DNA of 64,000 bases, taken from an uncultured Alphaproteobacteria bacterium. GTDB lineage: Bacteria; Pseudomonadota; Alphaproteobacteria; Methylaequorales; Methylaequoraceae. The position numbers and the translations under genes are program-made. The stretch is from positions 7,371 through 71,370 of the forward strand of contig CABZMK010000004.1 in assembly GCA_902526865.1 (NCBI GenBank), written 5' to 3'. This document shows positions 21,679-47,522 of this stretch, piece by piece. Below the pieces are notes generated by a model, which saw nothing but the letters and a program-made list of their open reading frames with translations, did not search any database and was not told where the DNA came from. Every line of letters begins with the position of its first letter. Positions within the stretch are counted from its first letter, which is position 1.

Positions 21679-23056
21679 TATTACTATTCCAAGAAGTTAA
21701 TATAAAAAAAAGCATTATCGCCGAAGCTAAACTGTAAATAAAGCCTGACAACTTTTTAAGTTTAAAAAAATATTTGTTTATATGAAACAATAAATTAAAT
21801 AATGCAAAAAAAAAGATATAAGCTAATAATGATTTATTTGTAATAAAATTAATATTCCATTCAGCAAAATGAACATATGAAGCAACAAAAGTTTTAGCTT
21901 GTAAGTAATTCTGTGATCTAAAAAAAATCCACGCAAACGAAACAATGTAAAATGTTAGGAGGACTTTTAAGGTATCAAATATAAAATTTGAGTGTATTTT
22001 TATTTTGTAAAACTTGATAACTTTTATAAAAATCTTTTCTGCAACTAGAATAAATCCATGAATAGCTCCCCAGAAAATAAACATCCAGCTAGCACCATGC
22101 CATAACCCAAATAAGCTCATTACGAACACTAAATTTATGTAATGTCTAATTTCTCCCTTTCTATTACCACCCAGGGGAATGTAAACATAATCTCTAATCC
22201 ATGTTGAAAGGGAAATATGCCACCTTTTCCAAAATTCTGTTAGACTTTTGGCCAAATAAGGAAAATTGAAATTTTTTCTAATTCTAAAACCCATCCAAAG
22301 CGCCAAACCAATTGCAATATCAGAATAACCAGAAAAATCACAGTAAATCTGAATTGAAAAACCTAATATTGCTAATACATGATCAATACTAGAGAATATT
22401 TCTGGGTTCTTAAAAATATTATTAATCATTGGGGCAATAGAATCTGCTATAACAATTTTTTTAAATAATCCTGAAATAATTAGAAAAGCTCCAAGGTTTA
22501 ATCTTTTTAATGTTAAAAAAGTTCTTTTAAATAATTGAGGTAAAAAGTCTTTAGCTCTAATTATTGGACCTGCAACGAGTTGTGGGAAAAAAGACACAAA
22601 TAAAGCAAAATCAAGAAAATTTGTTGGTTGAGTCTTTCCTCTATAAACATCAATAGTGTAACTTAGTGTTTGAAAAGTATAAAATGATATACCAACAGGT
22701 AAAATAAAATCTGGTAATATAAAATTATGTGTGAGGTTAAAAATTGATAGTATATTATTTAAATTTTCTAAAAAAAACTTTCCGTATTTAAAAAAAAATA
22801 ATACTCCTAAATTAGCAATTAAGCTTAAAATTAACCATTGAGTTTTATTGTTATTTGAATAGAAAATTTTTTTAGCACAAAAATAATCAACTACAGTAGA
22901 AAAAATTAGTAAAATTAAATAGCTTGGATTAAAACTTGAATAAAAAAAATAACTTAATAAACAAATAAAAATTTTGTTTTGCTTCCAAGGTAGTATAAGA
23001 AAGAAAATAAAAAAAAAAATAATAAATGGAAGAAATTCTATACTATTAAAAATCAT
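21653..23056 (-). CDS. MBOAT-family membrane O-acyltransferase (AlgI/DltB-like)
   Basis: 467-aa ORF, polytopic. FWKRWHISLSTWIRDYVYIPLGGNR and LWHGASW contain the conserved MBOAT histidine. Confidence 0.85.
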   Translation of the reverse strand: MIFNSIEFLPFIIFFFIFFLILPWKQNKIFICLLSYFFYSSFNPSYLILLIFSTVVDYFCAKKIFYSNNNKTQWLILSLIANLGVLFFFKYGKFFLENLNNILSIFNLTHNFILPDFILPVGISFYTFQTLSYTIDVYRGKTQPTNFLDFALFVSFFPQLVAGPIIRAKDFLPQLFKRTFLTLKRLNLGAFLIISGLFKKIVIADSIAPMINNIFKNPEIFSSIDHVLAILGFSIQIYCDFSGYSDIAIGLALWMGFRIRKNFNFPYLAKSLTEFWKRWHISLSTWIRDYVYIPLGGNRKGEIRHYINLVFVMSLFGLWHGASWMFIFWGAIHGFILVAEKIFIKVIKFYKIKIHSNFIFDTLKVLLTFYIVSFAWIFFRSQNYLQAKTFVASYVHFAEWNINFITNKSLLAYIFFFALFNLLFHINKYFFKLKKLSGFIYSLASAIMLFFILTSWNSNNAFIYFQF

Positions 23057-23725: not shown

Positions 23726-23772
23726 AATATTAATTAATTTCTTTTTTTTAATTTATATTTATCTTGTTAGTT

Positions 23773-25677
23773 ATGTGCGGAATTGCCGGAAGTTTAAGAT
23801 GGGAAAAGTCTAATAGTAATGAATTTAATAATTTAAAAAAAATTATTTCATTTTTAAATCATCGAGGCCCTAATTTTTCCGAAGTAAAAAAAATAGATAA
23901 TGTAGTTTTTGGACATACAAGATTGGCAATTATAGATCTAGATAAAAGTGCTAATCAACCAATGTCAGATGTTAGTGGAAGATATTTCATTGTTTATAAT
24001 GGTGAAATTTATAATTTTAAAGAAATAAAAAAGAAACTTTTAAGTCATGGAGTGGTTTTTAAAACTAATTCAGACACGGAAGTTATTTTAGAATCATACA
24101 AAATATGGGATAAAAAATGTCTTGATTTTTTTGAAGGAATGTTTGCTTTTGCTATTTGGGACAAAAAATTAAAAAAACTATTTTTAGCAAGGGACAGATT
24201 AGGTGAAAAACCTCTGTTTTACTACCCATATAACGGAAAGAATTTCAATGAAGGTATAATTTTCTCTTCAGAGTTAAGAGCTCTATTAAAACATCCTAAT
24301 GTACAATTCAAAATTTCTGATCAAGGAATTTGGGAATACCTATCATTAAATTATATTCTTGGTAATTCCTGCATAATAAAAGGAGTAAAAAAATTGGAGC
24401 CAGCTCATTTTATGATCATTGAAAAAAATAAATTCTCTTTAAAAAAATATTGGCATCTTAAAAAATATTTTATAAACAAAAAAAATTATACTTCAAAAAG
24501 CGAAGCTTTGGATGAATTTAAGAGTTTATTAGATAATACTGTAAAAAAACAACAAATTTCAGATGTTAAATTAGGTGCTTTTTTGAGTGGTGGTATTGAT
24601 TCTTCAACAATTTTAGCTTCAATGTGTAATACCCAACAAAAAAAAAAGGTAAGCGCGTTTTGTATAGGATTCCATGAAGAGGACTATAGTGAAATTGAGC
24701 AAAGTAAATACTTGTCAAAATTTTTTAATATTAAAAACTTTTCTTTAAATATTGGTTCAGAAATTCAAAAAGATTTTTTAAAAATCTTGGATTATACAAA
24801 TGATGAACCTATAGGAGATACATCAATTTTACCAATGTACTATCTTACCAAATTTACAAAAAATCATGTAACAGTTTCCCTTTCAGGAGATGGTGCCGAT
24901 GAACTATTTATTGGGTATGAGACGTATTTAGCAAACAAACTTAAACAAGTTACTTCCTTTTTACCTAATTTTTTTTTAGAAAATCTGTCATCAACTGTTA
25001 ATCGTTTTTTTCCAGTTAGTCATAAAAAAATTAGCTTTGATTATAAGTTAAAACAGTTTCTAAGTGGTTGTTCATTAAGTAATTTTGAAGCTCATTTTTG
25101 GTGGAGAAATATCTTTTCGGATAATTTAAAAAAAGAGATGTTTAAAAAATATAATGATAAACTTATCTCACCGTTTTCTAGATATAAGAAATTTTTTGAT
25201 GATGTAGGTGAATGTGATTTTATTGACCAAGCTTCATATGTTGATATAAATACATGGTTAGTCGATAATGTGTTGGTAAAATTGGATAGAACAAGTATGA
25301 CAAACTCACTTGAATGTAGATCTCCATTTCTCAGTCATAAGATCGTAGAATTTGCTGCTTCTTTAAAACCAGGTTGGAAGATGAATGGTTTTAAAAAAAA
25401 AGATTTCTTAAAAAAATCACAATCCAATATTCTTCCTAAAAAAATTCTTTTTGCCAAAAAAAAGGGGTTTAATTCTCCAATATCTATTTGGTTTAATAAT
25501 TCATTAAACAAAATTGCAAAAGAAGTAACACTTGATTCGGAGATTACTGATTTTATAAAAAAAAATTCTATTGAAAAATTATGGAAAGAACATGAAAGTA
25601 ATAAGATTGACCACAGCTTCAGGTTATTTGGATTAACCTGTTTATCAAGATGGATATCAACCCAAAAAAGGAATTAA
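23773..25677 (+). CDS. Glutamine-hydrolysing asparagine synthase family amidotransferase (AsnB/WbpS-like)
   Basis: ORF 23764-25677. The likely start is the ATG at 23773, giving MCGIAGS with the catalytic Cys2. FLSGGIDSS PP-loop. Sits in a glycan gene context. Confidence 0.9.
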   Translation: MCGIAGSLRWEKSNSNEFNNLKKIISFLNHRGPNFSEVKKIDNVVFGHTRLAIIDLDKSANQPMSDVSGRYFIVYNGEIYNFKEIKKKLLSHGVVFKTNSDTEVILESYKIWDKKCLDFFEGMFAFAIWDKKLKKLFLARDRLGEKPLFYYPYNGKNFNEGIIFSSELRALLKHPNVQFKISDQGIWEYLSLNYILGNSCIIKGVKKLEPAHFMIIEKNKFSLKKYWHLKKYFINKKNYTSKSEALDEFKSLLDNTVKKQQISDVKLGAFLSGGIDSSTILASMCNTQQKKKVSAFCIGFHEEDYSEIEQSKYLSKFFNIKNFSLNIGSEIQKDFLKILDYTNDEPIGDTSILPMYYLTKFTKNHVTVSLSGDGADELFIGYETYLANKLKQVTSFLPNFFLENLSSTVNRFFPVSHKKISFDYKLKQFLSGCSLSNFEAHFWWRNIFSDNLKKEMFKKYNDKLISPFSRYKKFFDDVGECDFIDQASYVDINTWLVDNVLVKLDRTSMTNSLECRSPFLSHKIVEFAASLKPGWKMNGFKKKDFLKKSQSNILPKKILFAKKKGFNSPISIWFNNSLNKIAKEVTLDSEITDFIKKNSIEKLWKEHESNKIDHSFRLFGLTCLSRWISTQKRN

Positions 25678-31855: not shown

Positions 31856-33694
31856 TTAGCGGTCTAAAATATTATTAATTTTAGAATTACAATCTTTTAA
31901 ACGCTTAATTAAAAGTAAAGCCAAATTTTTTAAAAGTGTTTCTAAAATTTTTTTTCGAGATTGTTGAATGGAATCTAAAATTTTTAGTGGCAAATAAAAG
32001 CAAGTGCACTCAGTTAAGGTTGTAACATTTGCAGATCTTTTAGATTTTGGTTCAATCAATGCAAATTCTCCAAAACAAGTTCCAGCATTAAGTGTTGTTA
32101 GAGATTTTTGGACATTAATTGCAATATCGACTTTTCCTGACTGCAAGAAATATATGCCATCAGCCTCATCACCCTTTGATATAATTTTTACATTTTTTTT
32201 AAATTTTTTTTCAATCATTCTTTCTTTTAAAAAATCCAAATCGCTATTACTAAGAGCCTTAAAAAGAAATTGTTCTTTCAAATCTTCATTTTTATTTGCT
32301 TTTTCATCAGCGCTGTACTTTTGAATCAAAAAATCTTCTACCCATCTAATTGCTTCATTATTATTTTCAAATAACCTTGTTTTATTATCGTCCATATTGC
32401 CAAGGCTCCCAATTATCTTATTCCAAGTTTGTGAATTAATTTCTATGTCACTAAAAATAATTTTTGTACTCAAACTATTTAAAGTCTGAATAAATGCATC
32501 CAGCAATTTATCTGCTCCTGAACTTAATTGACTAACCTTCCTCATAGATAAAATTATGAACTCCTTTTTATCAAGTTCTTGTAACCTGCGAACTATATAA
32601 TCTACTGCCATAAAATTAATTGATCCAGCTAGCTCGTATACATGCGCTTTGGCACCGAACTTTTCCAAAATTTTAATATTCTTCTCTTTACGTTCTGTTG
32701 AGGACCTAATGTTTTGCAAGTTGTAGCTAGCAACTATAGAGTCTTTTATGTTTCCTTCAATTTCTAGTATATGTAAATTATAGTACGAAGAAATTCTTTT
32801 ACACACCTCTATGCCTCTAACACTATTACCTTGTCTATCAAGTGGGGGTGAGAAAGTACCCAATCCGAATTGAGATGGTAGAGCAGCAATGATGCCTCCA
32901 CCTACTCCACTTTTTGCGGGAAATCCAACTCTATATACCCATTCTCCTGAGTAATCGTACATCCCAGAACTCACCATGATGGACATAGTTTTCAAAGCAT
33001 TTTCAACACTAATTACCCTTTTTTTTGTTATCGGATTAATTCCATTGCAAGCGAGGGTTGCCCCCATTGTCGCAAGATCCCTTGCAGAAACAAGTAAAGA
33101 ACATTGTTTAAAATAAGTTACAAGCGATTGTTCTACATTTGTTTTGATTATTTTGTTATTTTTTAAGAGCCATGCAATTGCTCTGTTTCGATCACCAGTA
33201 GCATTCTCTGATTTAAATACTTTTTCATCAAGACTAAGATTTCGACCAGCAAAATCACTCATTATTTTTTGAATTTTTTTGAAGGCTTTAGACTTTTCAA
33301 CTGAGCAAATTAGTGCAGTACAAGCAATAGCTCCAGCATTAATCATTGGATTGAAGGGTCTATTGTCATTTTGAAATCTAATGGAATTAAAAGCCTCTCC
33401 AGAAGGTTCAACACCTATTATTTTATTAACCTCTTTTTCACCTACTAATTCAAGTGCCAAAGAATATGCAAACGCTTTTGAGATAGATTGAATTGTAAAT
33501 TCCTGTAATGAATCTCCAATTTCATGAATGTATCCATCACTACTAGCTAAAGCGACTCCAAATTGATCGGGATTGGCGCGTGATAGTTCAGGTATGTAGT
33601 CAGCTGTTTTTCCTGACTTATTAAGTAAAACATTACTATAAATATTTTTTAAAAAACTATCTAATGGTAATGGAATTAAAGAATTGCGTTTCAT
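31856..33694 (-). CDS. glsA: Glutaminase fused to STAS and cyclic-nucleotide-binding domains
   Basis: 612-aa ORF. N-terminal glutaminase (QSISKAFAYSLAL, PFNPMINAGAI, KSGVGGGI), a central STAS-like region, and a C-terminal cNMP-binding domain (IISKGDEADGIYFLQSGKV...FGEFALI). Confidence 0.85.
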   Translation of the reverse strand: MKRNSLIPLPLDSFLKNIYSNVLLNKSGKTADYIPELSRANPDQFGVALASSDGYIHEIGDSLQEFTIQSISKAFAYSLALELVGEKEVNKIIGVEPSGEAFNSIRFQNDNRPFNPMINAGAIACTALICSVEKSKAFKKIQKIMSDFAGRNLSLDEKVFKSENATGDRNRAIAWLLKNNKIIKTNVEQSLVTYFKQCSLLVSARDLATMGATLACNGINPITKKRVISVENALKTMSIMVSSGMYDYSGEWVYRVGFPAKSGVGGGIIAALPSQFGLGTFSPPLDRQGNSVRGIEVCKRISSYYNLHILEIEGNIKDSIVASYNLQNIRSSTERKEKNIKILEKFGAKAHVYELAGSINFMAVDYIVRRLQELDKKEFIILSMRKVSQLSSGADKLLDAFIQTLNSLSTKIIFSDIEINSQTWNKIIGSLGNMDDNKTRLFENNNEAIRWVEDFLIQKYSADEKANKNEDLKEQFLFKALSNSDLDFLKERMIEKKFKKNVKIISKGDEADGIYFLQSGKVDIAINVQKSLTTLNAGTCFGEFALIEPKSKRSANVTTLTECTCFYLPLKILDSIQQSRKKILETLLKNLALLLIKRLKDCNSKINNILDR

Positions 33695-38626: not shown

Positions 38627-39544
38627 ATGGTGTTACCTAATTTTTTAATTGCAGGTGCTGCTGCCTCTGGAACAAGTTTTTTAAGTTCAATATTAATGCA
38701 GCATACAGATATATATCTACCGAAAGAAATGCGTCCAGAGCCTCATTTTTTCTATTACTCAGATAAATATGCTCACGGTGTTGAGTGGTATAAAAAAAAA
38801 TGGTTTTCTGATGTAAAAAAACAATCAGCTGTTGGTGAAAGATCCTCATCTTACCTCTATCACAAAGAAAGCGCAAAAAGAATTAGCCAAAACTTACCAA
38901 ATATTAGACTAATATTTGTTCTAAGAAATCCGATAGAAAGGACTTGGGCTAACTATAGATATACCGTTTTAAGTGGATTAGAGGATTTATCATTCACAGA
39001 CGCATTAGAAACAGAATCTCATAGAGTTAAAAATGCATCTGGAATATGGAAAGAAGTACAACCGCACGATTATACAGGAAGAGGCTTATATGGAGAACAA
39101 CTTGAATTTTATCTTAATTTCTTTTCATGGAGTCAAATATTAATTATTAATTCAGAGAAATTGTCGTCCGAAACTCAAATTCAGCTTGATCGTATTACTA
39201 ATTTTTTAGGTGTCAAAAATTTAGAACAGTTTGAATACCCACCTGCTTTTACATCCCTAAGTATTTTAAATAAAGATGTTCAAATAAAATGCAGAAAATT
39301 ATTAGGTGCCAACAAATTTAATTGTATTGTGGAGGCGGTTCGGCGAAAAGAATTCAATGTTGATGACTTCTCTGAAGACAATAAAGAAAAAAAAGTTATC
39401 AAAAGTCTTTCGAACAATATGGTAAATGAAAAGTACAAAATACCTGAAAAAAATTATGAATGGTTAGCAGATTTTTTTAGAAAAGATCAAGATAAATTTT
39501 TTAATATTTCCAAAAACTACATAGATTTTAAAAGATGGTTTTAG
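38627..39544 (+). CDS. Sulfotransferase-fold protein (candidate transferase using a 3'-phospho-nucleotide donor)
   Basis: 305-aa ORF. 5'-PSB-like loop AGAAASGTSFLSSIL and 3'-PB-like motif LRNPIERTWANYRY. The stop overlaps the start of the CysC-like kinase by 10 nt. Confidence 0.75.
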   Translation: MVLPNFLIAGAAASGTSFLSSILMQHTDIYLPKEMRPEPHFFYYSDKYAHGVEWYKKKWFSDVKKQSAVGERSSSYLYHKESAKRISQNLPNIRLIFVLRNPIERTWANYRYTVLSGLEDLSFTDALETESHRVKNASGIWKEVQPHDYTGRGLYGEQLEFYLNFFSWSQILIINSEKLSSETQIQLDRITNFLGVKNLEQFEYPPAFTSLSILNKDVQIKCRKLLGANKFNCIVEAVRRKEFNVDDFSEDNKEKKVIKSLSNNMVNEKYKIPEKNYEWLADFFRKDQDKFFNISKNYIDFKRWF

Positions 39545-40035
39545 TTTGGATTACAGGTTTGTCAGGTTCCGGGAAAACAACTTTAGCAAAGGCATTAAAA
39601 AAAAATATGTCAGGCGAAGGATATAATCCTATTTTGATGGATGGAGATGTATTGCGTGAAATTCTAGACTTTACCGAAAAAGGATACGCTCTTCAAGATA
39701 GAAAACAACTTGCTTTTTGCTATGCAAGGTTAGCTAATCTTTTTGTTAAACAAGGGTTTTTAGTAATAGTTGCAACAGTTTCAATGTTTGAGGATGTGAG
39801 AAAATGGAATCGAGAAAATAATCACAAATACTGCGAAGTTTATTTAAAGGTTGATAGGCAAACACGCGTATCAAGAGACCCTAAAAAACTATACGAATCA
39901 AATACTGATCTGGTTGAATTTGAAAATGGCTTTGATGAGCCGAGAAAACCAGACATAATTTTTGATCATTTTTACGATTTGGATCAAATGGTTAACAAGC
40001 TTAAAATATATTTAATGGAGAAATTTAATGCATAG
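39535..40035 (+). CDS. CysC-family P-loop kinase (APS kinase homologue; candidate cytidine diphosphoramidate kinase, Cj1415-like)
   Basis: 166-aa ORF. VWITGLSGSGKTTLAKAL P-loop and the size typical of the CysC family. The function is inferred from operon context. Confidence 0.8.
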   Translation: MVLVWITGLSGSGKTTLAKALKKNMSGEGYNPILMDGDVLREILDFTEKGYALQDRKQLAFCYARLANLFVKQGFLVIVATVSMFEDVRKWNRENNHKYCEVYLKVDRQTRVSRDPKKLYESNTDLVEFENGFDEPRKPDIIFDHFYDLDQMVNKLKIYLMEKFNA

Positions 40036-40819
40036 CACAGAAATAAAAACGGTTGAGCATGGTAATTTTTCAGGACTAGCAAAGGACTATTCAACGTACA
40101 GGCCCACATATTCTAAGTCAGTTCTTAAGTCGTTGATAGCACTACTAAAAAACTCTGTTCATGAGTGTGATTTTGCGGATATAGGTGCAGGAACCGGTAT
40201 TTGGACTAGGCTGGTCGAATCATATAATCCTAAGTCTATAATAGCAATAGAGCCAAATGAAGATATGCGGAGTATAGGAATACGTGATTCATCTAAAACA
40301 AAAATTAAATGGCAGAAGGGTTCTGGAGAAAAGACTGGCTTGGAAAGTAAATCAATGGATATGGTCTCAATGGCAAGCTCCTTCCATTGGGTTGATTTTG
40401 AAAAGGGATGCAAAGAATTTCATAGGGTTCTTAAAAAGAATGGGCGTTTTGTAGCTTTATGGAACCCAAGACAGTTGCAAGAAAACCCTTTTCTTGAAAA
40501 GTTAGAGGGATATATAAATCTTTTAAAACCTGGCTATAAACGTATATCTTCTGGTAATAGCGGGAGAGCTGAAAATTTAACTGAAAAATTTTTTAACAGT
40601 GGTTTGTTTACAGATGTTGTTTATATAGAGGGAAGGCATGTTGTGTCGATTTCTCCTGAAAAATATATCGGTGCTTGGCACTCGGTCAATGATGTACAAC
40701 ATCAACTTGGTCCAGATAAGTTTTTGGATTTCATTAATCATCTCAAACAAGAATTAAAAGGGATAGATACAGTGAATGTAACGTATCAAACACGAGCTTG
40801 GTCAGCATTAAAAAAATAG
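40028..40819 (+). CDS. Class I SAM-dependent methyltransferase (Cj1419/Cj1420-like position)
   Basis: 263-aa ORF. FADIGAGTGIWTRLV motif I and MVSMASSFHW. Overlaps the upstream gene by 8 nt. Confidence 0.8.
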   Translation: MHSTEIKTVEHGNFSGLAKDYSTYRPTYSKSVLKSLIALLKNSVHECDFADIGAGTGIWTRLVESYNPKSIIAIEPNEDMRSIGIRDSSKTKIKWQKGSGEKTGLESKSMDMVSMASSFHWVDFEKGCKEFHRVLKKNGRFVALWNPRQLQENPFLEKLEGYINLLKPGYKRISSGNSGRAENLTEKFFNSGLFTDVVYIEGRHVVSISPEKYIGAWHSVNDVQHQLGPDKFLDFINHLKQELKGIDTVNVTYQTRAWSALKK

Positions 40820-40828
40820 GAATATGGT

Positions 40829-43138
40829 ATGTCAAAAGCATCTATTTTAATAAAACTAAAAAAAAACATAAGAAAAGCTAAAATCTTAGATCTTTTCTCA
40901 TTTCAATGCCATGAATTTGTTAAAAACTCTGAAGATGTAATTAGAGAAGTTTCTCGGCATCTAGGTGCATCAAAACATTTTATTGTACGTAGCAGTTCAT
41001 CAAAAGAAGATCAAATAAATTCTTCTTCGGCAGGTAAATATAAATCCTTTTTGAACGTTAAAAAAGACAATCTAAAGGATGCTATCAAAAAAGTGATTGA
41101 ATCATATGGGAAAGAATGTAAGCCAGAAGATGAAGTTTTAATCCAACCTATGTTAAAAAATGTAAATATGAGTGGGGTTTTGTTTACACACTGTCCTAAA
41201 TCTGCAGCTCCCTATTACATTATTAATTATAATGATTCAGGTGATACAACTGCTGTCACTTCTGGTAAAGGAGATTGTAAAACGCAGTATATTTATCACA
41301 ATTTGAAAAAACATGATTCTCCAAAATTTCGAAAACTTATTTCTTTATCGAAAGAATTGACTGAAAAACTTAACAATCCTTCTCTTGATATTGAGTTTGC
41401 TTTTAATAATAATGAAGAATTGTTTTTACTACAGGTTAGACCAATTGTATATCAAAAACAGTTAGCTCGTGGGCTAAATTTAGATGATTCAATAAAAGGA
41501 ATTAAGAAAAAATTTCATTCTCTATCTTTAAAACATCCTTATTTGTACGGTGATAAAACAATTCTAGGAATTATGCCGGATTGGAATCCCGCAGAAATAA
41601 TTGGAGTTAAGCCAAAGCCTCTTGCATTGAGTCTTTATAAAGAACTAATCACCGACGGTATATGGGCCTATCAAAGAGATAATTATGGATATCGGAACTT
41701 AAGAAGTTTCCCACTTCTTATTGATTTGGGTGGTCTGCCTTACATAGACACGCGTGTGAGTTTTAACTCTTTTTTACCCAAAGGTCTTTCAGAAGAATTA
41801 GCAAAAAAACTTACTAACTATTATTTAGAGCAGTTAGAAAAGAAACCTCAATTACACGATAAAATTGAGTTCGATATTACTTTTTCTTGCTATACATTTG
41901 ATCTTAAAGAAAAGTTAAAAACACTCAAGAAGTATCTTTTTACAGACTCTGAAATCATTACAATTCATGAGGCATTAAAAAATTTAACTGATAATATAAT
42001 CCATGAAAGAAAAGGACTGTGGCTAAAAGATATTCAAAAAATTTCTGAATTAGAAAATCGTCACAAAACAATATTTTTTAATCCTGATTTTGATGATTTA
42101 ACTAAGATCTATTGGTTGATTGAGGATTGTAAAAGATATGGAACGCTTCCATTTGCTGGTCTCGCAAGAGCAGGCTTTATAGCCGTTCAACTTCTTGATT
42201 CAATAATGAAGATAGGAGTTATTTCCGAGGAAGATAAGCTTCTCTTTATGAATAGTCTTGATTCAATTAGTACAAATTTAGAAAAGGATTTTAAAACTCT
42301 AGATAAAGAGAATTTTATCGGAAAATATGGGCACTTGCGTCCTGGCACCTACAACATATTATCAAAACGATATGATGAAACCCCAGATATTTACTTTAAT
42401 TGGAGTGATTCTAAACTAAGCAACCCAATTAAAAAAAATAAATTCAAGTTAAGCTTACAACAGATGCAGATAATCGAAGAACTTCTCAAAAAACATAATT
42501 TAAGCTATGATGTCGTGGGCCTATTCTCTTTTATAAAGTCCGCTATTGAAGGTAGAGAATATTCTAAATTTACATTTACCAAGACCCTAAGTGATATTTT
42601 ATCACTGCTTAAAAAATATGGAGCAATAAATAATATCCCTGTTGAAGATCTTGCATTTTTAGATATTAAAGATCTAATAAAAAATTTCTCCTCTTCATCT
42701 AATACTTTAGAAGATTTAGAATTAAGTATTGAGCGAGGCAAGAAAAAATATGCCCTTTCTGAGAAAATTATCCTTCCTCCGATCATTGCAAACATTGATC
42801 AAATAGAAAATTTTGGACTATTTGAAGAGCACCCTAATTTTATAACGAAAAAAAAAATAACGTCCCATGTAATTAAATATATCCAAGGAGAAACTAATTT
42901 AAAAAATGCAATAGTTTTTATTGATAGTGCAGACCCAGGTTATGACTGGCTTTTTACTAGGGGCATAGCTGGATTTGTAACAGCATATGGAGGTGTTAAT
43001 TCCCATATGAGTATCAGGGCTGCAGAATTGGATTTTCCTGCAATTATTGGAGCTGGTGAAGTTTTGTATGACAAGTGGAGTAGGGCTAAGAGAATTCACA
43101 TTGATTGCGAAAATCAACATGTTGAGGTTATCGCTTGA
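40829..43138 (+). CDS. PEP-utilising/PPDK-like three-domain enzyme; candidate L-glutamine kinase (Cj1418-like)
   Basis: 769-aa ORF. N-terminal ATP-grasp-like region (FIVRSSSSKEDQINSSSAGKYKSF). C-terminal swivel domain GGVNSHMSIRAAELDFPAIIGAG, with the phospho-carrier His codon at 43004-43006. Confidence 0.7.
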   Translation: MSKASILIKLKKNIRKAKILDLFSFQCHEFVKNSEDVIREVSRHLGASKHFIVRSSSSKEDQINSSSAGKYKSFLNVKKDNLKDAIKKVIESYGKECKPEDEVLIQPMLKNVNMSGVLFTHCPKSAAPYYIINYNDSGDTTAVTSGKGDCKTQYIYHNLKKHDSPKFRKLISLSKELTEKLNNPSLDIEFAFNNNEELFLLQVRPIVYQKQLARGLNLDDSIKGIKKKFHSLSLKHPYLYGDKTILGIMPDWNPAEIIGVKPKPLALSLYKELITDGIWAYQRDNYGYRNLRSFPLLIDLGGLPYIDTRVSFNSFLPKGLSEELAKKLTNYYLEQLEKKPQLHDKIEFDITFSCYTFDLKEKLKTLKKYLFTDSEIITIHEALKNLTDNIIHERKGLWLKDIQKISELENRHKTIFFNPDFDDLTKIYWLIEDCKRYGTLPFAGLARAGFIAVQLLDSIMKIGVISEEDKLLFMNSLDSISTNLEKDFKTLDKENFIGKYGHLRPGTYNILSKRYDETPDIYFNWSDSKLSNPIKKNKFKLSLQQMQIIEELLKKHNLSYDVVGLFSFIKSAIEGREYSKFTFTKTLSDILSLLKKYGAINNIPVEDLAFLDIKDLIKNFSSSSNTLEDLELSIERGKKKYALSEKIILPPIIANIDQIENFGLFEEHPNFITKKKITSHVIKYIQGETNLKNAIVFIDSADPGYDWLFTRGIAGFVTAYGGVNSHMSIRAAELDFPAIIGAGEVLYDKWSRAKRIHIDCENQHVEVIA

Positions 43139-43734
43139 TGAAGTATGTTGGTCTTACAATGCGAATTGAAGATTTATCTAAAAATGATGAAAGAAGGGAT
43201 TGTATTGATCAACGTTGGTACAATTTTTTAAATGCATGTAATTTGCGGCCTATCTTAATTCCAAATTTAGAATATTTTGTATCAGAAAAATATTTAAATA
43301 AGTTATCAGGCATTATTTTAACTGGAGGTAATTCATTATCACATTTAGGAGGTAACGCTCCAGAGCGTGAAGTTGTTGAAAAAAAACTTATTAAGTATGC
43401 AATAGGAAAGAAACTACCTCTGATGGGAGTTTGTCGTGGAATGCAAGTTTTACAAAACTACTATAAAGTTCCTATCGAAAAGGTTGATGGTCATGTAGGA
43501 ACACGACACAACTTGCTTTTTAAGAACGAAAAGATAAATGTAAATAGTTTTCATAAGTACGGGACAAAGGGAACTACTGATTGCTTAGAAATTCTTGCTA
43601 ATTGTTCAGATGGGGTAGTGGAAGCAGTAAAACATAAAGAGCTCCCATTTATAGGTATTATGTGGCATCCAGAAAGGGAGAATTTATTTTCTAATTTTGA
43701 TATTCAATTAATTGGGGAACACTTTCTGTCATGA
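43138..43734 (+). CDS. Class I glutamine amidotransferase-fold / peptidase C26 hydrolase; candidate gamma-glutamyl-CDP-amidate hydrolase (Cj1417-like)
   Basis: ORF 43135-43734, ATG at 43138 (TGATG overlap). Nucleophile elbow GVCRGMQVL and WHPE His motif. Confidence 0.75.
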   Translation: MKYVGLTMRIEDLSKNDERRDCIDQRWYNFLNACNLRPILIPNLEYFVSEKYLNKLSGIILTGGNSLSHLGGNAPEREVVEKKLIKYAIGKKLPLMGVCRGMQVLQNYYKVPIEKVDGHVGTRHNLLFKNEKINVNSFHKYGTKGTTDCLEILANCSDGVVEAVKHKELPFIGIMWHPERENLFSNFDIQLIGEHFLS

Positions 43735-43955
43735 AAGAAAATTTGCAAAATATATTTAATCAAAGTGACTCAGATACCACTGTCTACTTTAAAGGTATTA
43801 AATTTACTTTGGAAGATGATGTCTCAACTCTTACTAAAGTAGATTGTGTATCATACGTCTTATTAACAAGCATATTAAAAAGAACTAAAAACATCTCCAT
43901 ACTATCAGAAAAGAATATTATGAACCTAGAGATTTTTTGGAAGGGTACCCCTTAA
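43731..43955 (+). CDS. Hypothetical 74-aa protein, translationally coupled on both sides
   Basis: ATGA overlap upstream and TAATG overlap downstream. No motif recognised. Confidence 0.35.
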   Translation: MKENLQNIFNQSDSDTTVYFKGIKFTLEDDVSTLTKVDCVSYVLLTSILKRTKNISILSEKNIMNLEIFWKGTP

Positions 43956-44647
43956 TGAGAGCAATTATTTTAGCTGCAGGTCGTGGTAGTCGAATGGGTA
44001 ACTTAACAGATGAAAAACCAAAGTGTCTTTTGGAAGTCTATGGAAAACCTCTTATCGAGCATCAAATTGAGGCTCTTACAACAGGGGGTATAGAAGAGAT
44101 TGCTATTGTTACTGGATACAAAAGTGAACTTTTGTATTGTTATGGGAACCATCATTTTCATAATGAAGAATGGGCCGAGACAAACATGGTTCACTCTTTA
44201 CTATGTGCTAAAGAATGGTTTAACATGGATGATTGTATTGTAAGCTATGCTGATATTTATTACACTTTTGAAGTTATCAAAGACTTGGTGAATTGCCCTG
44301 ATGATATCGCGATTTCTTATGACCCAAATTGGCTAGAATTATGGTCCAAAAGGTTTGAGAACCCTTTAGATGATGCAGAAACCTTTAAAATCAATGAAGG
44401 TGGATACTTGCTCGAAATTGGACAAAAACCAAAAACTATAAAAGAAATTCAAGGGCAATATATGGGTTTATTAAAGTTTAGTTCGTCATTTTTCTTAAAG
44501 GTCCAGAAAAGTAAATTTACAAGAAAAATAAGTATGACCGATTTTTTATCAACTATTATAAAAAATGGAACAACTATTAAGTGTATCAAAAATAATACCA
44601 TTTGGAATGAATTTGACAGCGCTTCAGACTTTCAGATAGGTGTATGA
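43955..44647 (+). CDS. Nucleotidyltransferase (LicC/MobA-like fold); candidate CTP:phosphoglutamine cytidylyltransferase (Cj1416-like)
   Basis: ORF 43937-44647. The likely ATG is at 43955, giving MRAIILAAGRGSRMG...KCLLEV, the canonical NTP-transferase N-terminus. Confidence 0.75.
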   Translation: MRAIILAAGRGSRMGNLTDEKPKCLLEVYGKPLIEHQIEALTTGGIEEIAIVTGYKSELLYCYGNHHFHNEEWAETNMVHSLLCAKEWFNMDDCIVSYADIYYTFEVIKDLVNCPDDIAISYDPNWLELWSKRFENPLDDAETFKINEGGYLLEIGQKPKTIKEIQGQYMGLLKFSSSFFLKVQKSKFTRKISMTDFLSTIIKNGTTIKCIKNNTIWNEFDSASDFQIGV

Positions 44648-45021
44648 ATATTCTTATATATTAGGGAAAACATTTAAAATGTTAGTAAATTTAATTAAAT
44701 CAACAATCTAAAAACTTAAGTGAAATCTTGAACTCATTTACTTTCGTACCAAGACAGAAAAAAATGAATTTAAATCTTTTAATGGACACTGTTTTTAATG
44801 TGTTATAAAAATGAAATTTATATACCTAACAGAATGAAGAATATTAAACTAGGGTCGAATGAGTATAGTTTTGTCAACCAAGTTTTTGAAATGGGATCAA
44901 TACTTACCTAAGTAATTTCAAGCAGTGCCGGCTCTACAATGAACAAAAAGTATTAATGCAGGGTGTGTTTTTGGATATAAGTTGTTGGTACTGAAAGCTT
45001 TTGGTAAAGTTCACTCAAGAT

Positions 45022-46164
45022 ATGATTAAAAATAAAAAAATTTGCTCTAGATGTATTTATGATGAGCATATTCCAAATATTTCTTTTTCAGATGATGGGA
45101 TTTGTAATTATTGTGATCAAATTGATTTTTTAAAAAAGGAATTTGGTACTGGTAAAAAAAAAGGACACAAACTATTAAAAAATTTAATCAATAAAATTAA
45201 AAAAGAAGGTCAATCAAAAAAATATGATTGTGTTATTGGTGTAAGTGGTGGGACAGATTCATCATATTTACTGATGAAAGCCAAGGAATGGGGGTTAAAG
45301 CCACTTGCAGTTCATTATGACAATACATGGAATACAGCAACGGCTAGTATGAATATAGCTAAAGTTACAAAGTATCTTGATATCGACTTATTTACTTATG
45401 TAATTGATAATAAAGAAGTAAATGATATGAAACTTTCTTTTTTACGTTCTGGTGTTCCAGAATTTGATGCTGATACTGACATAGCATTCGTTCAAATATT
45501 AAGACAGGTAGCTGCTAATAAAAAAATAAAATATATTTTAGAAGGACATTCTTTTATAACTGAAGGAATCTCACCTGTGGGAAGCAACTATTTTGACGGA
45601 GGCTACGTAGCTGATATTCATAAGAAATTTGGTAAGCTAAAAATGAAATCTTATCCAAATATGACCTTTTTTCAATTTATGAAATGGATACTTCTTTATA
45701 GACAAAAATTTATTCGTCCTTTGTGGTATATTGATTATTCTAAAGAAGAAGCACAAAAAATATTAATTGAAAAGACGGGGTGGCAATACTATGATGGTCA
45801 CCATTTAGAGAATAGAGCATCATGGTTCACACACACACTTTGGCTTCCTAGATATGGAACTGATTTTAGATATTTATCTTTAGCAGCAAAGGTAAGAAAT
45901 AATAAAATTAAACGTCTTACGGCTCTTAAAGAAATGAAAAAACCAATTATAGAGAGCACAATGTTAATTAATTATGTTAAAAAAAGATTGGATTTGAATC
46001 ATAACGAGTATAAAAGTATCATGAATGGGACAAAGAGGACTTGGAGAGGATTCAAGACATATAAAAAAAGATTCGAGATTCTCAAACCAATTTTTTATAT
46101 TCTTATGAAACTAAATCTAGTACCAGTAACTTTTTATCAAAAATATTGTAATAAAATAGACTAG
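45022..46164 (+). CDS. N-acetyl-sugar amidotransferase (PP-loop ATP pyrophosphatase, WbuX/PseA-like)
   Basis: ORF 45001-46164. The likely ATG is at 45022. N-terminal CSRC...CNYC zinc ribbon and the GVSGGTDSSYL PP-loop. Confidence 0.8.
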   Translation: MIKNKKICSRCIYDEHIPNISFSDDGICNYCDQIDFLKKEFGTGKKKGHKLLKNLINKIKKEGQSKKYDCVIGVSGGTDSSYLLMKAKEWGLKPLAVHYDNTWNTATASMNIAKVTKYLDIDLFTYVIDNKEVNDMKLSFLRSGVPEFDADTDIAFVQILRQVAANKKIKYILEGHSFITEGISPVGSNYFDGGYVADIHKKFGKLKMKSYPNMTFFQFMKWILLYRQKFIRPLWYIDYSKEEAQKILIEKTGWQYYDGHHLENRASWFTHTLWLPRYGTDFRYLSLAAKVRNNKIKRLTALKEMKKPIIESTMLINYVKKRLDLNHNEYKSIMNGTKRTWRGFKTYKKRFEILKPIFYILMKLNLVPVTFYQKYCNKID

Positions 46165-46165
46165 A

Positions 46166-46774
46166 ATGATTACTATTTTAAATTATGGTTTAGGAAATCT
46201 TGGATCGATACAAAATATGCTTCATTTTTTAGAAGTGGACTCTAAAATAGCGTCTGACATCCGGAATATTAAAAAAGCATCAAAAATTATTTTGCCTGGT
46301 GTGGGTGCTTTTGACACAGCAATAAAAAAATTAAACAGTGTAAAAGGTTTATTTGATATTTTAAATGAAAAGGCTTTGATCGAAAAAGTTCCTATTTTGG
46401 GTATATGTCTTGGCATGCAAATTTTAACTAAAGAAAGTGAAGAAGGTGTTTTAAAAGGTTTAAATTGGATACCAGCTAAAGTTCATAAGTTTCCGCATAA
46501 TAAAAAAATCAAAGTTCCTCATATGGGCTGGAACTCTGTAAACCAAATAAAAAAAAATAGTCTAGGTAAAAACTTAGATGAAAATAGTAAATTTTATTTT
46601 GTTCATTCTTATTATGTAAAAGCTGAAAATAGAGATAATGTAATATTTACCACTAACCACATTGTTAACTTTGATTCTGCCATACAATTTGAAAATATTT
46701 ATGGTGTTCAGTTTCATCCTGAAAAAAGTCATAAATTCGGTATAAATATTTTTAAAAATTTTTTGAAGATTTAA
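46166..46774 (+). CDS. Imidazole glycerol phosphate synthase HisH-like glutaminase subunit (glycan-cluster paralogue, WbuY-like)
   Basis: 202-aa ORF. LPGVGAF, GICLGMQIL catalytic Cys and FHPEKS. Confidence 0.85.
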   Translation: MITILNYGLGNLGSIQNMLHFLEVDSKIASDIRNIKKASKIILPGVGAFDTAIKKLNSVKGLFDILNEKALIEKVPILGICLGMQILTKESEEGVLKGLNWIPAKVHKFPHNKKIKVPHMGWNSVNQIKKNSLGKNLDENSKFYFVHSYYVKAENRDNVIFTTNHIVNFDSAIQFENIYGVQFHPEKSHKFGINIFKNFLKI

Positions 46775-46775
46775 T

Positions 46776-47522
46776 TTGTTACGACTTAGAGTAATACCGA
46801 TTTTATTATTAAAGGATGATCGTTTAGTAAAAACGGTCAACTTTAAAAAACCAAATTATATTGGAGATCCTTGTAATACAATTAGAATATTTAATGAACT
46901 ACAAGTTGATGAATTATTTTTGTTTGACATATTTGCTTCGAAAAATAAAAGCGATCCAAATTACAAAATTATCTCAAATATCGTTGATGAATGTTTTATG
47001 CCTTTAAGTTATGGCGGAGGAATAAATTCCTTAGACCAAGCAAAAAAAATCTTTGATTTTGGGGTCGAAAAAATATCCTTAAACTCAGCCATCTTAAATA
47101 ATCCAAAACTTATTTATGATTTGGCAAAAATTTATGGTAGTCAAGCTATTATCTGTTCCATTGATTATAAAAAAAACATATTTGGAGCTTATACTGTATG
47201 GACGAATAGAGGAACTATAGACACAAAAAAATGTCCAATTGAATGGGCAAAAGAATTAGAGAAAAGAGGAGCAGGAGAAATATGTTTGACTTCTATTGAT
47301 AGAGAAGGATCTTGGTTAGGTCCTGATTTGGAAATATCAAAAAAAGTATCAGACTTATTGTCAATTCCTCTAGTTACACACGGAGGTGTTGGTGAAATAA
47401 AACACATAAAAATACTTCAAAAAAATACAAATATTTCGGGCGTAGGCGTTGGAAGTATGTTTGTATATCAAAAAAAAGGTAATGGTGTTTTGATAAATTA
47501 TCCATTTGAAGAATTAGTGTAA
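46776..47522 (+). CDS. HisF-like cyclase subunit (glycan-cluster paralogue, WbuZ-like)
   Basis: 248-aa ORF (TTG start). RVIPILLLKDDRLVKTVNF, GGGI and GAGEI..TSIDREG motifs. Starts 1 nt after the hisH-like stop. Confidence 0.85.
   Translation: MLRLRVIPILLLKDDRLVKTVNFKKPNYIGDPCNTIRIFNELQVDELFLFDIFASKNKSDPNYKIISNIVDECFMPLSYGGGINSLDQAKKIFDFGVEKISLNSAILNNPKLIYDLAKIYGSQAIICSIDYKKNIFGAYTVWTNRGTIDTKKCPIEWAKELEKRGAGEICLTSIDREGSWLGPDLEISKKVSDLLSIPLVTHGGVGEIKHIKILQKNTNISGVGVGSMFVYQKKGNGVLINYPFEELV

What the first reader, a model, noticed from the sequence alone, without database searches (positions are those of the whole stretch)
38627..40035. Sulfotransferase-fold protein coupled to the CysC-like kinase: candidate phosphoramidate transferase using a PAPS-like donor
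Seen in sequence:
- The first gene of the operon has both PAPS-binding signatures of sulfotransferases: a 5'-PSB-like loop (AASGTSFLSS) and a 3'-PB-like motif (RNPIERTWANY).
- Its stop overlaps the CysC-like kinase start by 10 nt.
- None of the window's ORFs resembles the long Cj1421/Cj1422-type MeOPN transferases. None resembles an ATP sulfurylase (CysDN/Sat).

Established knowledge: the final MeOPN donor, 3'-phospho-cytidine-5'-diphosphoramidate, is structurally a PAPS analogue (3'-phosphonucleoside 5'-diphospho-X).

Inference: a sulfotransferase fold may have been recruited to transfer the phosphoramidate group, rather than sulfate, to a sugar hydroxyl. That would be an undescribed activity for this fold. 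The ordinary reading (PAPS-dependent glycan sulfation) remains possible.
Basis: inference. Interest (0 to 1): 0.8.

Follow-up and report, generated by a model that had tools for sequence, protein, structure and literature searches.

The report
Sulfotransferase-like enzyme in a phosphoramidate operon
A small sulfotransferase-shaped enzyme sits inside a complete set of genes that build a PAPS-like phosphoramidate donor, and comparative genomics makes it the best candidate for the pathway's still-unidentified transfer step.

Summary
The ORF is real: 38627-39544 (+), 305 aa, sulfotransferase fold (Pfam E 2e-11; PDB 3rnl E 2e-22; AF2 pLDDT 94.7). It overlaps a Cj1415-type kinase by 10 nt. Homologues of Cj1420/1419, Cj1418, Cj1417 and Cj1416 follow. 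The window has no Cj1421/22 homologue and no sulfate-activation gene.

One correction: the "PAPS signatures" are degenerate. The PSB-loop Lys/Arg is absent across the close family, the 3'-PB Ser is mostly Ala/Gly, and a new invariant Arg111 appears.

- Eight of 10 sampled family members lie in or beside the glutamine-kinase module, in several gene orders.
- In two orders the gene is embedded inside the module.
- None lies beside cysDN or sat.
- In 80 glutamine-kinase loci from many phyla, at least 46 carry other sulfotransferase-like genes, 40 of them within 500 nt of the module.
- 77 of those 80 loci carry the 3'-kinase domain.

Best reading (about 0.65): it transfers the phosphoramidate group from 3'-phospho-CDP-amidate to a glycan. 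This rests on genomic context only and is unproven biochemically.

Caveats: two family members lack a nearby module, and one Vibrio plasmid has cysDN beside a module.

I class it as a new variant of a known system. Interest is about 0.7.

The parts
38627..39544 (+). Sulfotransferase-fold protein (305 aa), candidate phosphoramidate transferase. Degenerate PSB loop at residues 10-19 (Ala13 in place of Lys/Arg), catalytic Glu38 in EPHFF, 3'-PB-like RNPIERTWANYRY at residues 100-112 with family-specific Arg111.
   Evidence: Pfam and PDB sequence hits. AF2 model and Foldseek. Family signature. Context survey.
39535..40035 (+). Cj1415-type kinase (166 aa), predicted CDP-amidate 3'-kinase. Its start overlaps the sulfotransferase stop by 10 nt.
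   Evidence: Pfam APS_kinase E 3e-26. NCBIfam NF004041/PRK05541 scores 136.9 (cut-off 127) but falls below the apsK cut-off. C. jejuni Cj1415 hits the same model at 294 bits. 36% identity to Cj1415.
40028..40819 (+). SAM-dependent methyltransferase (263 aa), a Cj1420/Cj1419 homologue, predicted O-methylation of the phosphoramidate.
   Evidence: Pfam Methyltransf_11 E 1.6e-15. 34% identity to the Cj1420-like and 33% to the Cj1419-like protein.
40829..43138 (+). L-glutamine kinase (769 aa), Cj1418 homologue.
   Evidence: NCBIfam NF004508 at 977 bits (cut-off 501). 44% identity to Cj1418 over 774 aa. Pfam PPDK_N and PEP-utilizers.
43135..43734 (+). Gamma-glutamyl-CDP-amidate hydrolase-like amidotransferase (199 aa), Cj1417 homologue.
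   Evidence: Pfam Peptidase_C26 E 3e-26. The best NCBIfam hit is NF045546 GCDPHdlase at 138.5 bits, below its cut-off of 250. 33% identity to Cj1417.
43731..43940 (+). Remnant (about 70 codons) of a CysQ-like 3',5'-bisphosphate nucleotidase gene. The gene is intact at this position in related operons.
   Evidence: tblastn gives 54% identity to residues 1-76 of the 254-aa protein of L002, E 1.8e-19. That protein scores 228.1 on TIGR01331 bisphos_cysQ, cut-off 228.8.
43937..44647 (+). CTP:phosphoglutamine cytidylyltransferase-like protein (236 aa), Cj1416 homologue.
   Evidence: Pfam NTP_transf_3 E 1e-19. 40% identity to Cj1416 over 252 aa.

Best explanation
The gene encodes a sulfotransferase-fold group transferase that uses the product of its own operon as donor.

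Proposed pathway:
1. The glutamine kinase phosphorylates L-glutamine on its amide nitrogen.
2. The cytidylyltransferase makes CDP-L-glutamine.
3. The C26 hydrolase releases CDP-amidate.
4. The Cj1415-type kinase adds a 3'-phosphate, giving 3'-phospho-CDP-amidate, which is a PAPS look-alike.
5. The sulfotransferase-like protein binds this donor as sulfotransferases bind PAPS. Glu38 acts as base on an acceptor hydroxyl of a surface glycan. The phosphoramidyl group is transferred and 3',5'-CDP (pCp) leaves.
6. The adjacent methyltransferase makes the O-methyl ester, either before or after transfer.
7. In sister operons a CysQ-like nucleotidase recycles pCp. In this window that gene is truncated.

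What is shown: the fold, the homology of all five flanking enzymes to Cj1415-Cj1420, the conserved clustering, and the altered active-site signature.

What is taken from established knowledge: steps 1-4, as characterised for Cj1418, Cj1416, Cj1417 and Cj1415 by Taylor, Raushel and colleagues.

What is inferred: the donor used by this protein, the leaving group, the acceptor and the order of methylation.
For: - Translational coupling to the kinase (10-nt overlap) is conserved in the window, L001 and L002.
- 8 of 10 sampled family members sit with the module.
- The gene orders differ. ST-KIN-MT-GLNK-C26-(CysQ)-NTP occurs in the window, L001, L002, L007 and L091. The P0065 locus has the same order with two extra genes inserted. 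L092 has GLNK-C26-NTP-ST-CysQ-KIN-MT. L093 has GLNK-C26-NTP-KIN-ST-MT.
- No other transferase candidate lies in these operons.
- Independent sulfotransferase-like families flank the module in at least 46 of 80 glutamine-kinase loci. Family c12 is in 19 loci, and 11 of 12 tested members hit Pfam Sulfotransfer_3 at E 1e-13 to 6e-4. Four further loci have Pfam sulfotransferases. Family c9, supported by motifs only, is in 26 loci.
- 40 of these genes lie within 500 nt of the module and none lies 4-10 kb away.
- 77 of 80 loci carry the 3'-kinase domain, and in 42 it is fused to the glutamine kinase.
- A CysQ-like gene lies inside many modules.
- The close family lacks the PSB Lys/Arg that canonical PAPS enzymes need, and has gained an invariant Arg111.
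- RefSeq annotates sulfotransferase-domain proteins beside the module on an Azospirillum plasmid.
- The transfer step is still described as unclear in June 2026 (PMC13276843).
Against: - No enzymology exists, and the evidence is guilt by association within glycan loci, where sulfotransferases are enriched anyway.
- Two family members (Sericytochromatia L004, Thermosynechococcaceae L006) have no module within 10 kb. They nest among module-linked members and share all invariant residues. So either the module lies elsewhere in those genomes or the family can work without it.
- The family is almost always preceded by an AsnB-like gene, which suggests a tie to a particular sugar rather than to the donor.
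- The nearest glutamine-kinase relative (Holosporales, L094) has a TagF-like gene in the same position instead.
- One Vibrio plasmid has cysD and cysN next to a module.
- The 80 loci are a non-random sample. They are the best 80 of the first 600 pattern matches and include many soil MAGs.
- Family c9 is not statistically established as sulfotransferase-fold.
Confidence: 0.65

Rival explanations
1. It is an ordinary PAPS-dependent glycan sulfotransferase. It sulfates the sugar made by the dehydratase, aminotransferase and AsnB genes that usually precede it. It lies next to the phosphoramidate module only because both decorate the same polysaccharide. PAPS would come from cysDN and cysC elsewhere in the genome.
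For: - The fold and the closest solved relatives are true sulfotransferases.
- Catalytic Glu38, Arg100 and Arg105 are kept.
- Two family members occur with AsnB but without the module.
- AsnB linkage is seen in all nine homologous loci examined.
- A Vibrio plasmid has cysDN beside a module.
Against: - No sulfate-activation gene is in the window or in any of the 10 family loci.
- The PSB Lys/Arg, present in 108 of 115 neighbouring sulfotransferases, is absent from all 25 close-family representatives aligned at that position (28 sampled, 3 gapped).
- The gene is embedded inside the module in two different orders and is translationally coupled to the CDP-amidate-type kinase.
- Unrelated sulfotransferase families repeat the same adjacency in many phyla.
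- This reading leaves the module without any transferase in these loci.
Confidence: 0.2
2. It uses the 3'-phospho-nucleotide donor but not for glycan O-phosphoramidation. It might modify a different acceptor, such as an amino group of the amino sugar, a nucleotide-sugar precursor, a lipid or a protein. Or it might serve as a non-transferring donor-binding or hydrolysing accessory, with the real glycan transferase being an unannotated ORF of the island.
For: - The acceptor is completely unknown.
- The conserved upstream dehydratase, DegT and AsnB genes point to an amino or amide sugar.
- The window holds several ORFs with no Pfam family: 10847-12142, 12150-13409 and 20554-21678.
- TagF-like or CDP-alcohol-transferase genes take the equivalent place in other loci.
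Against: - The catalytic base and an intact, confidently folded active-site scaffold are conserved.
- The unannotated ORFs are not conserved next to the module in related loci.
Confidence: 0.1

Closest known systems
Campylobacter jejuni O-methyl phosphoramidate (MeOPN) system, Cj1415-Cj1422
   Same: The window has homologues of all six biosynthetic genes. Identities are Cj1418 44%, Cj1416 40%, Cj1415 36%, Cj1420 34%, Cj1419 33% and Cj1417 33%. They sit in one co-directional block inside a surface-glycan island. The same PAPS-like donor is expected.
   Different: - There is no Cj1421/22-type transferase. That family is NF058596, about 620 aa, DUF8374 plus DUF2972, and phase-variable through a polyG tract. 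tblastn against the window gives E 0.3 or worse, and there is no G/C run of 6 or more in the operon.
- A 305-aa sulfotransferase-fold protein takes that place.
- There is one methyltransferase instead of two.
- Sister operons add a CysQ-like nucleotidase, which the C. jejuni locus lacks.
Heparan sulfate 3-O-sulfotransferases / NDST sulfotransferase domain, and bacterial sulfotransferase 3rnl
   Same: The fold matches (Foldseek TM 0.6-0.8). The EPHFF catalytic Glu/His segment and the R-x-P-x-x-R core of the 3'-PB motif are shared.
   Different: The PSB Lys/Arg is absent, the 3'-PB Ser is mostly Ala or Gly, and there is an extra invariant Arg111. A family-specific C-terminal helical region of about 100 aa is present. 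The genomic partners make a cytidine phosphoramidate donor, not PAPS.
PAPS cycle (CysDN/Sat, CysC, sulfotransferase, CysQ), e.g. rhizobial NodPQ-NodH type glycan sulfation
   Same: The logic is the same: activate a group on a nucleoside 5'-phosphate, add a 3'-phosphate with an APS-kinase-fold enzyme, transfer the group with a sulfotransferase-fold enzyme, and clear the 3',5'-bisphosphonucleotide with a CysQ-type phosphatase.
   Different: The activation steps are glutamine kinase, cytidylyltransferase and amidohydrolase instead of ATP sulfurylase. The nucleotide is cytidine. The group transferred is predicted to be phosphoramidate.
Other sulfotransferase-like genes beside glutamine-kinase modules
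   Same: They have the same position relative to the module and, for c12 and the Azospirillum-type, the same fold family in Pfam.
   Different: They are different sequence families, and the window-family HMM finds none of them in 80 loci. Family c12 keeps the canonical PSB Arg (GRSGS) and the PB Ser, is 410-600 aa long, and often occurs as tandem pairs.

Membership tests
Sulfotransferase fold (Pfam Sulfotransfer_1 / Sulfotransfer_3; 3-OST-like) | Overall fold and significant profile match | tested here: met
   Pfam gives 43.9 and 44 bits, above the cut-offs of 22 and 27. PDB 3rnl gives E 2e-22. AF2 pLDDT is 94.7, and all 42 Foldseek matches with E <= 0.001 are sulfotransferases.
Canonical PAPS-dependent sulfotransferase | 5'-PSB loop with catalytic Lys/Arg (K/R-x-G-T/S-T/S) | tested here: not met
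   Residue 13 is Ala. None of the 25 close-family representatives aligned at this position (28 sampled, 3 gapped) has K/R, against 108 of 115 in the next-closest sulfotransferases.
Canonical PAPS-dependent sulfotransferase | 3'-PB motif R-x-P-x-x-R-x-x-S, with the Ser contacting the 3'-phosphate | tested here: inconclusive
   Arg100, Pro102 and Arg105 are invariant. The Ser position is Ala108 here. Across 28 family representatives it is A in 16, S in 8 and G in 4, against Ser in 112 of 116 other sulfotransferases.
Canonical PAPS-dependent sulfotransferase | Catalytic base (Glu of EPHFF in 3-OSTs) | tested here: met
   E38 is invariant and aligns with the 3-OST-3 EPHFF segment.
Canonical PAPS-dependent sulfotransferase | A PAPS supply (ATP sulfurylase plus APS kinase) in the genome, and actual use of PAPS | not testable with these tools
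   There is no CysD, CysN or Sat in 50 scanned window ORFs or in the 10 family loci. The rest of the genome is unavailable and there is no assay.
MeOPN transferase family (NCBIfam NF058596 CJJ1420_fam; DUF8374 + DUF2972) | Match to NF058596 / DUF2972 / DUF8374 | tested here: not met
   The window protein has 0 NCBIfam hits and only sulfotransferase Pfam hits. The C. jejuni protein scores 707 bits on NF058596. tblastn of Cj1421/22-like proteins against the window gives E 0.3 or worse.
MeOPN transferase family (NCBIfam NF058596 CJJ1420_fam; DUF8374 + DUF2972) | Phase-variable homopolymeric G/C tract | tested here: not met
   There is no G or C run of 6 or more in 38627-44647. The C. jejuni gene is split at its polyG tract.
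MeOPN transferase family (NCBIfam NF058596 CJJ1420_fam; DUF8374 + DUF2972) | Encoded beside Cj1415-Cj1420 homologues | tested here: met
   This is a functional-context feature, not evidence of homology.
MeOPN-type phosphoramidate donor pathway (Cj1415-Cj1418, plus Cj1419/20) | Glutamine kinase (NF004508) | tested here: met
   977 bits against a cut-off of 501. 44% identity to Cj1418.
MeOPN-type phosphoramidate donor pathway (Cj1415-Cj1418, plus Cj1419/20) | Cj1415-type kinase (NF004041) rather than a bona fide APS kinase | tested here: met
   136.9 bits against a cut-off of 127. It falls below the TIGR00455 apsK cut-off (100.5 < 138.7). Cj1415 itself hits the same model best. Substrate specificity was not tested.
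MeOPN-type phosphoramidate donor pathway (Cj1415-Cj1418, plus Cj1419/20) | Gamma-glutamyl-CDP-amidate hydrolase (NF045546) and cytidylyltransferase (Cj1416-like) | tested here: inconclusive
   The hydrolase's best hit is NF045546, but at 138.5 bits it is below the cut-off of 250. It is 33% identical to Cj1417. The cytidylyltransferase is 40% identical to Cj1416. Both are in the conserved positions.

The most novel reading that the evidence does not exclude
Sulfotransferase-fold proteins are the general, so far unrecognised phosphoramidyl transferases of the glutamine-kinase pathway. That pathway is present in at least about 590 species-level genomes across many phyla. Several independent subfamilies would have been recruited: the window type, which has lost the PSB Lys/Arg and gained Arg111; the Sulfotransfer_3-like 'c12' type; the 'c9' type; and possibly the unannotated core of C. 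jejuni Cj1421/22. This would be the first non-sulfuryl group transfer assigned to this fold. It would imply that phosphoramidate-decorated glycans are widespread, including in Legionella.
Probability: 0.5. Interest if true: 0.85.

Novelty: new variant of a known kind. Interest (0 to 1): 0.72.

Why it matters
- The donor side of MeOPN biosynthesis was solved in 2017-2018. The transfer step has never been reconstituted, and the group that solved the pathway still called it "currently unclear" in June 2026 (PMC13276843).
- The genetically assigned C. jejuni transferases are large, phase-variable proteins with no recognised catalytic domain.
- A compact, confidently folded 305-aa enzyme with a textbook fold gives a directly testable candidate. 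So do dozens of independent sulfotransferase-like neighbours in other phyla.
- The idea also gives a mechanistic frame: PAPS-like donor, in-line attack, and pCp as leaving group cleared by a CysQ-like enzyme.
- If confirmed, it extends the chemistry of the sulfotransferase fold.
- It would also show that phosphoramidate glycan decoration is not a Campylobacter oddity. That decoration is linked in Campylobacter to serum resistance and phage-receptor function.

Tried and rejected
- I looked for C. jejuni Cj1415-1418 sequences through the PDB. None are deposited.
- The Taylor & Raushel papers PMC5938747 and PMC6643271 are not held.
- I reached the C. jejuni locus another way. I used primer ak265 from PMC3907429 in the single metagenome scan, then the last protein search and a look-up. 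This cost the planned bulk survey centred on the sulfotransferase, which I replaced with 10 single look-ups.
- Profile comparisons of Cj1421/22 with sulfotransferase profiles were not significant: E 0.012-0.08 at the RDP motif and 0.33 at the Gly-rich loop.
- One hhalign run gave 99% probability. I reject it as an artefact of gap-rich columns. The alignment had no real identity, and the result vanished with -M first.
- I considered the loss of the PSB Lys to be a general mark of phosphoramidate donors. I rejected this because family c12 keeps Arg (GRSGS).
- I considered module-less family members to be a separate functional clade. I rejected this because they nest among module-linked members.
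- The promoter and terminator scan was uninformative, with fewer promoter-like sites than in shuffles.
The nearest glutamine kinase is labelled Holosporales, at 63% identity.
- tblastn of the protein against plasmids found only distant canonical sulfotransferases, at most 37% identity.
Full report
**1. What is there**

The ORF at 38627-39544 (+) encodes a 305-aa protein.
- It matches Pfam Sulfotransfer_1 (E 2.4e-11) and Sulfotransfer_3 (E 4e-11).
- By sequence it matches the bacterial sulfotransferase 3rnl (E 2.2e-22) and heparan sulfate 3-O-sulfotransferases (E 1e-16 to 2e-11).
- An AlphaFold2 model built on 95 homologues has mean pLDDT 94.7.
- Foldseek returns only sulfotransferases at the top: 3rnl, NDST1 and 3-OST-1/3/5, with TM 0.6-0.8.
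- The stop codon overlaps the ATG of the next gene by 10 nt.

**2. The operon**

The genes downstream are homologues of the whole C. jejuni MeOPN biosynthetic set. I obtained a real C. jejuni capsule locus (L089) for direct comparison.

| Window gene | C. jejuni homologue | Identity | Other evidence |
|---|---|---|---|
| 39535-40035 | Cj1415 | 36% | Passes NF004041, the model Cj1415 itself hits best; fails the apsK cut-off |
| 40028-40819 | Cj1420 / Cj1419 | 34% / 33% | Pfam Methyltransf_11 |
| 40829-43138 | Cj1418 | 44% | NF004508, 977 bits |
| 43135-43734 | Cj1417 | 33% | Best hit NF045546, below its cut-off |
| 43937-44647 | Cj1416 | 40% | Pfam NTP_transf_3 |

Between the last two genes lies a 70-codon remnant of a CysQ-like nucleotidase gene. 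That gene is intact in related operons.

The window has no Cj1421/22-like sequence (tblastn E 0.3 or worse). No sulfate-activation gene was found among 50 ORFs scanned.

**3. Correction to the observation**

The motifs are not intact PAPS signatures.
- Where canonical enzymes have the catalytic Lys/Arg of the 5'-PSB loop, this protein has Ala13.
- Where they have the 3'-PB Ser, it has Ala108.
- A search of 1.84 billion representatives found 42,562 sulfotransferase relatives.
- Among the 28 closest (the full-length family), residue 13 is never K/R and Arg111 is invariant.
- Among the next 120, residue 13 is K/R in 108 of 115, residue 108 is Ser in 112 of 116, and residue 111 is Arg in 15 of 116.
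- The 3-OST-type catalytic Glu (E38), Arg100 and Arg105 are kept.

The family is therefore a distinct, re-tooled branch of the fold.

**4. Co-occurrence, centred on the family**

I looked at the genomic context of 10 family members at 44-80% identity. Eight have the module.
- The window, L. spiritensis (L001), an 80% relative (L002/L003), a gamma MAG (L007) and L091 share the order ST-KIN-MT-GLNK-C26-(CysQ)-NTP.
- The P0065 locus has the same order with an MBOAT gene and a hypothetical gene inserted.
- L092 has GLNK-C26-NTP-ST-CysQ-KIN-MT.
- The Bacteroidota locus L093 has GLNK-C26-NTP-KIN-ST-MT.

Embedding of the gene inside the module in rearranged orders is hard to explain by neighbourhood alone.

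Two members (L004 Sericytochromatia, L006 Thermosynechococcaceae) have no module within 10 kb. They nest inside a clade of module-linked members and keep all invariant residues. I could not test whether the module lies elsewhere in those genomes.

In all nine homologous loci an AsnB-like gene precedes the sulfotransferase or the sulfotransferase-plus-module block. It usually follows a 4,6-dehydratase-like gene and a DegT aminotransferase gene. This is unexplained and may mark the acceptor sugar.

**5. Co-occurrence, centred on the glutamine kinase**

A genome scan found at least 591 relatives. I analysed 80 loci from Acidobacteriota, Proteobacteria, Planctomycetota, Nitrospinota, Chlamydiota, Bacteroidota, Melainabacteria-like groups and others.
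- None contains the window-type family.
- Clustering of neighbours revealed other sulfotransferase-like families.
- Family c12 (410-600 aa, 19 loci, sometimes in tandem pairs) hits Pfam Sulfotransfer_3 in 11 of 12 members tested. It aligns with the window family at hhalign E 1e-5.
- Four further loci have other Pfam sulfotransferases: L046, L053, L055 and L056.
- Family c9 (26 loci) has no Pfam hit. It carries a Gly-rich loop, YRHPLDSLLT and RLEDF motifs in sulfotransferase order. Its three best PDB profile hits are the sulfotransferases TEG12 and Teg14, but only at E 0.27-0.48.
- In total at least 46 of 80 loci have such a neighbour. 40 lie within 500 nt of the module and none lies 4-10 kb away.
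- 77 of 80 loci contain the APS-kinase-like domain, and in 42 it is fused to the glutamine kinase. A 3'-phosphorylated, PAPS-like donor therefore appears to be the rule.
- RefSeq annotation of an Azospirillum plasmid independently shows sulfotransferase-domain proteins beside the module.

**6. Complications**

- Some loci have other candidates in the equivalent place. A TagF-like Glyphos_transf gene occurs in the Holosporales relative L094, in Pseudomonas loci next to flagellar genes, and on a Vibrio plasmid.
- In an Agrobacterium vitis locus with no kinase gene in the stretch shown, a CDP-alcohol phosphatidyltransferase takes that place.
- The Vibrio alfacsensis plasmid has cysD and cysN next to the module. 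This is the only link to sulfate activation that I saw.
- The 80 loci are not a random sample.

**7. The C. jejuni transferases**

The Cj1421-like protein (622 aa) matches NF058596 "O-methyl phosphoramidate transferase", DUF8374 and DUF2972.
- Between those two domains it has EFIMVLKGCSGHTAF (about residue 241) and IYILTRDPLSRLKT (about residue 324).
- That is a strand plus Gly-rich loop, followed by an R-x-P-x-x-R-x-x-T motif, with sulfotransferase-like order and spacing.
- Both segments are the top local matches to the window-family profile, but they are not significant (E 0.012 and 0.33).
- Whether the known transferases share the fold remains open.

**8. Literature**

No paper in the searchable corpus mentions MeOPN, Cj1421 or glutamine kinase together with sulfotransferase. 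The group working on the pathway wrote in June 2026 that the enzymatic details of the decoration are unclear. Van Alphen et al. noted Campylobacter species that have cj1416-1418 but no recognisable transferase (PMC3907429).

**9. Verdict**

The most likely function is transfer of the phosphoramidate (or methyl phosphoramidate) group from 3'-phospho-CDP-amidate to a glycan hydroxyl, with Glu38 as base and pCp as leaving group. I put this at about 0.65. An ordinary PAPS sulfotransferase is the main rival, at about 0.2.

It is not a member of the Cj1421/22 family. It is an atypical member of the sulfotransferase fold family. I class it as a new variant of a known system. All support is comparative, and the decisive experiments are listed in the next-steps section.

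Noticed in passing
window 43731-43940 (+): This is a truncated CysQ-like (Inositol_P) gene. Only about 70 N-terminal codons remain between the C26 hydrolase and the cytidylyltransferase. The gene is intact (about 250 aa) at this position in L001, L002, L091 and the P0065 locus.
   Followed up: yes
window 45001-47522 (+): A WbuX-like N-acetyl sugar amidotransferase, HisH and an AglZ/HisF2-family protein lie directly downstream on the same strand. This is the acetamidino-sugar modification trio.
   Followed up: partly
window 31856-33694 (-): A glutaminase is fused to a cyclic-nucleotide-binding domain (612 aa). It lies a few kb from a pathway that consumes glutamine.
   Followed up: no
window about 10000-58000: This is a low-GC island (0.22-0.30, against 0.32-0.36 in the flanks) full of glycan genes: a carbamoyltransferase (15431-17260), MBOAT (21653-23056), AsnB (23764-25677), GT2, ManC, GDP-mannose dehydratase and two FkbM methyltransferases. 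Several ORFs of 370-430 aa have no Pfam family.
   Followed up: partly
L008-L087 (glutamine-kinase loci): In 42 of 80 loci the APS-kinase-like domain is fused to the N-terminus of the glutamine kinase. 77 of 80 loci have the domain, and the 3 without it are short loci (6.5-12.9 kb), two of them with the glutamine-kinase gene at or within ~600 nt of the locus end.
   Followed up: yes
L094:5209-6195; L037, L042, L045, L061, L068; L096:11927-13012: A TagF-like CDP-glycerol glycerophosphotransferase-family gene occupies the transferase position next to the module in a Holosporales contig, in Pseudomonas and Chitinilyticum loci, and on a Vibrio plasmid. The Pseudomonas loci lie beside flgI/flgK/flgL, which suggests flagellin glycan modification.
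   Followed up: partly
L096 (Vibrio alfacsensis plasmid NZ_CP140104.1): cysD, cysN and an SLC13 permease lie divergently next to a kinase-fused glutamine kinase module, and no cysC is annotated in the stretch shown.
   Followed up: no
L100 (Agrobacterium vitis plasmid NZ_AP023281.1): Here the glutamine kinase, C26 hydrolase and cytidylyltransferase occur with no 3'-kinase gene annotated in the 18-kb stretch, followed by a CDP-alcohol phosphatidyltransferase-family gene. This may be a variant that uses unphosphorylated CDP-amidate.
   Followed up: no
L001, L002, L004, L006, L007, L091, L092, L093, P0065 locus: An AsnB-like amidotransferase, usually after a 4,6-dehydratase-like gene and a DegT aminotransferase gene, always precedes the window-type sulfotransferase or the sulfotransferase-plus-module block. 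In the window itself the AsnB gene is 13 kb away.
   Followed up: partly
L089:11881-13749 (C. jejuni Cj1421-like): The unannotated segment between DUF8374 and DUF2972 carries 'LKGCSGHTAF' and 'TRDPLSRLKT'. These have sulfotransferase-like order and spacing, but the match is not statistically supported.
   Followed up: partly
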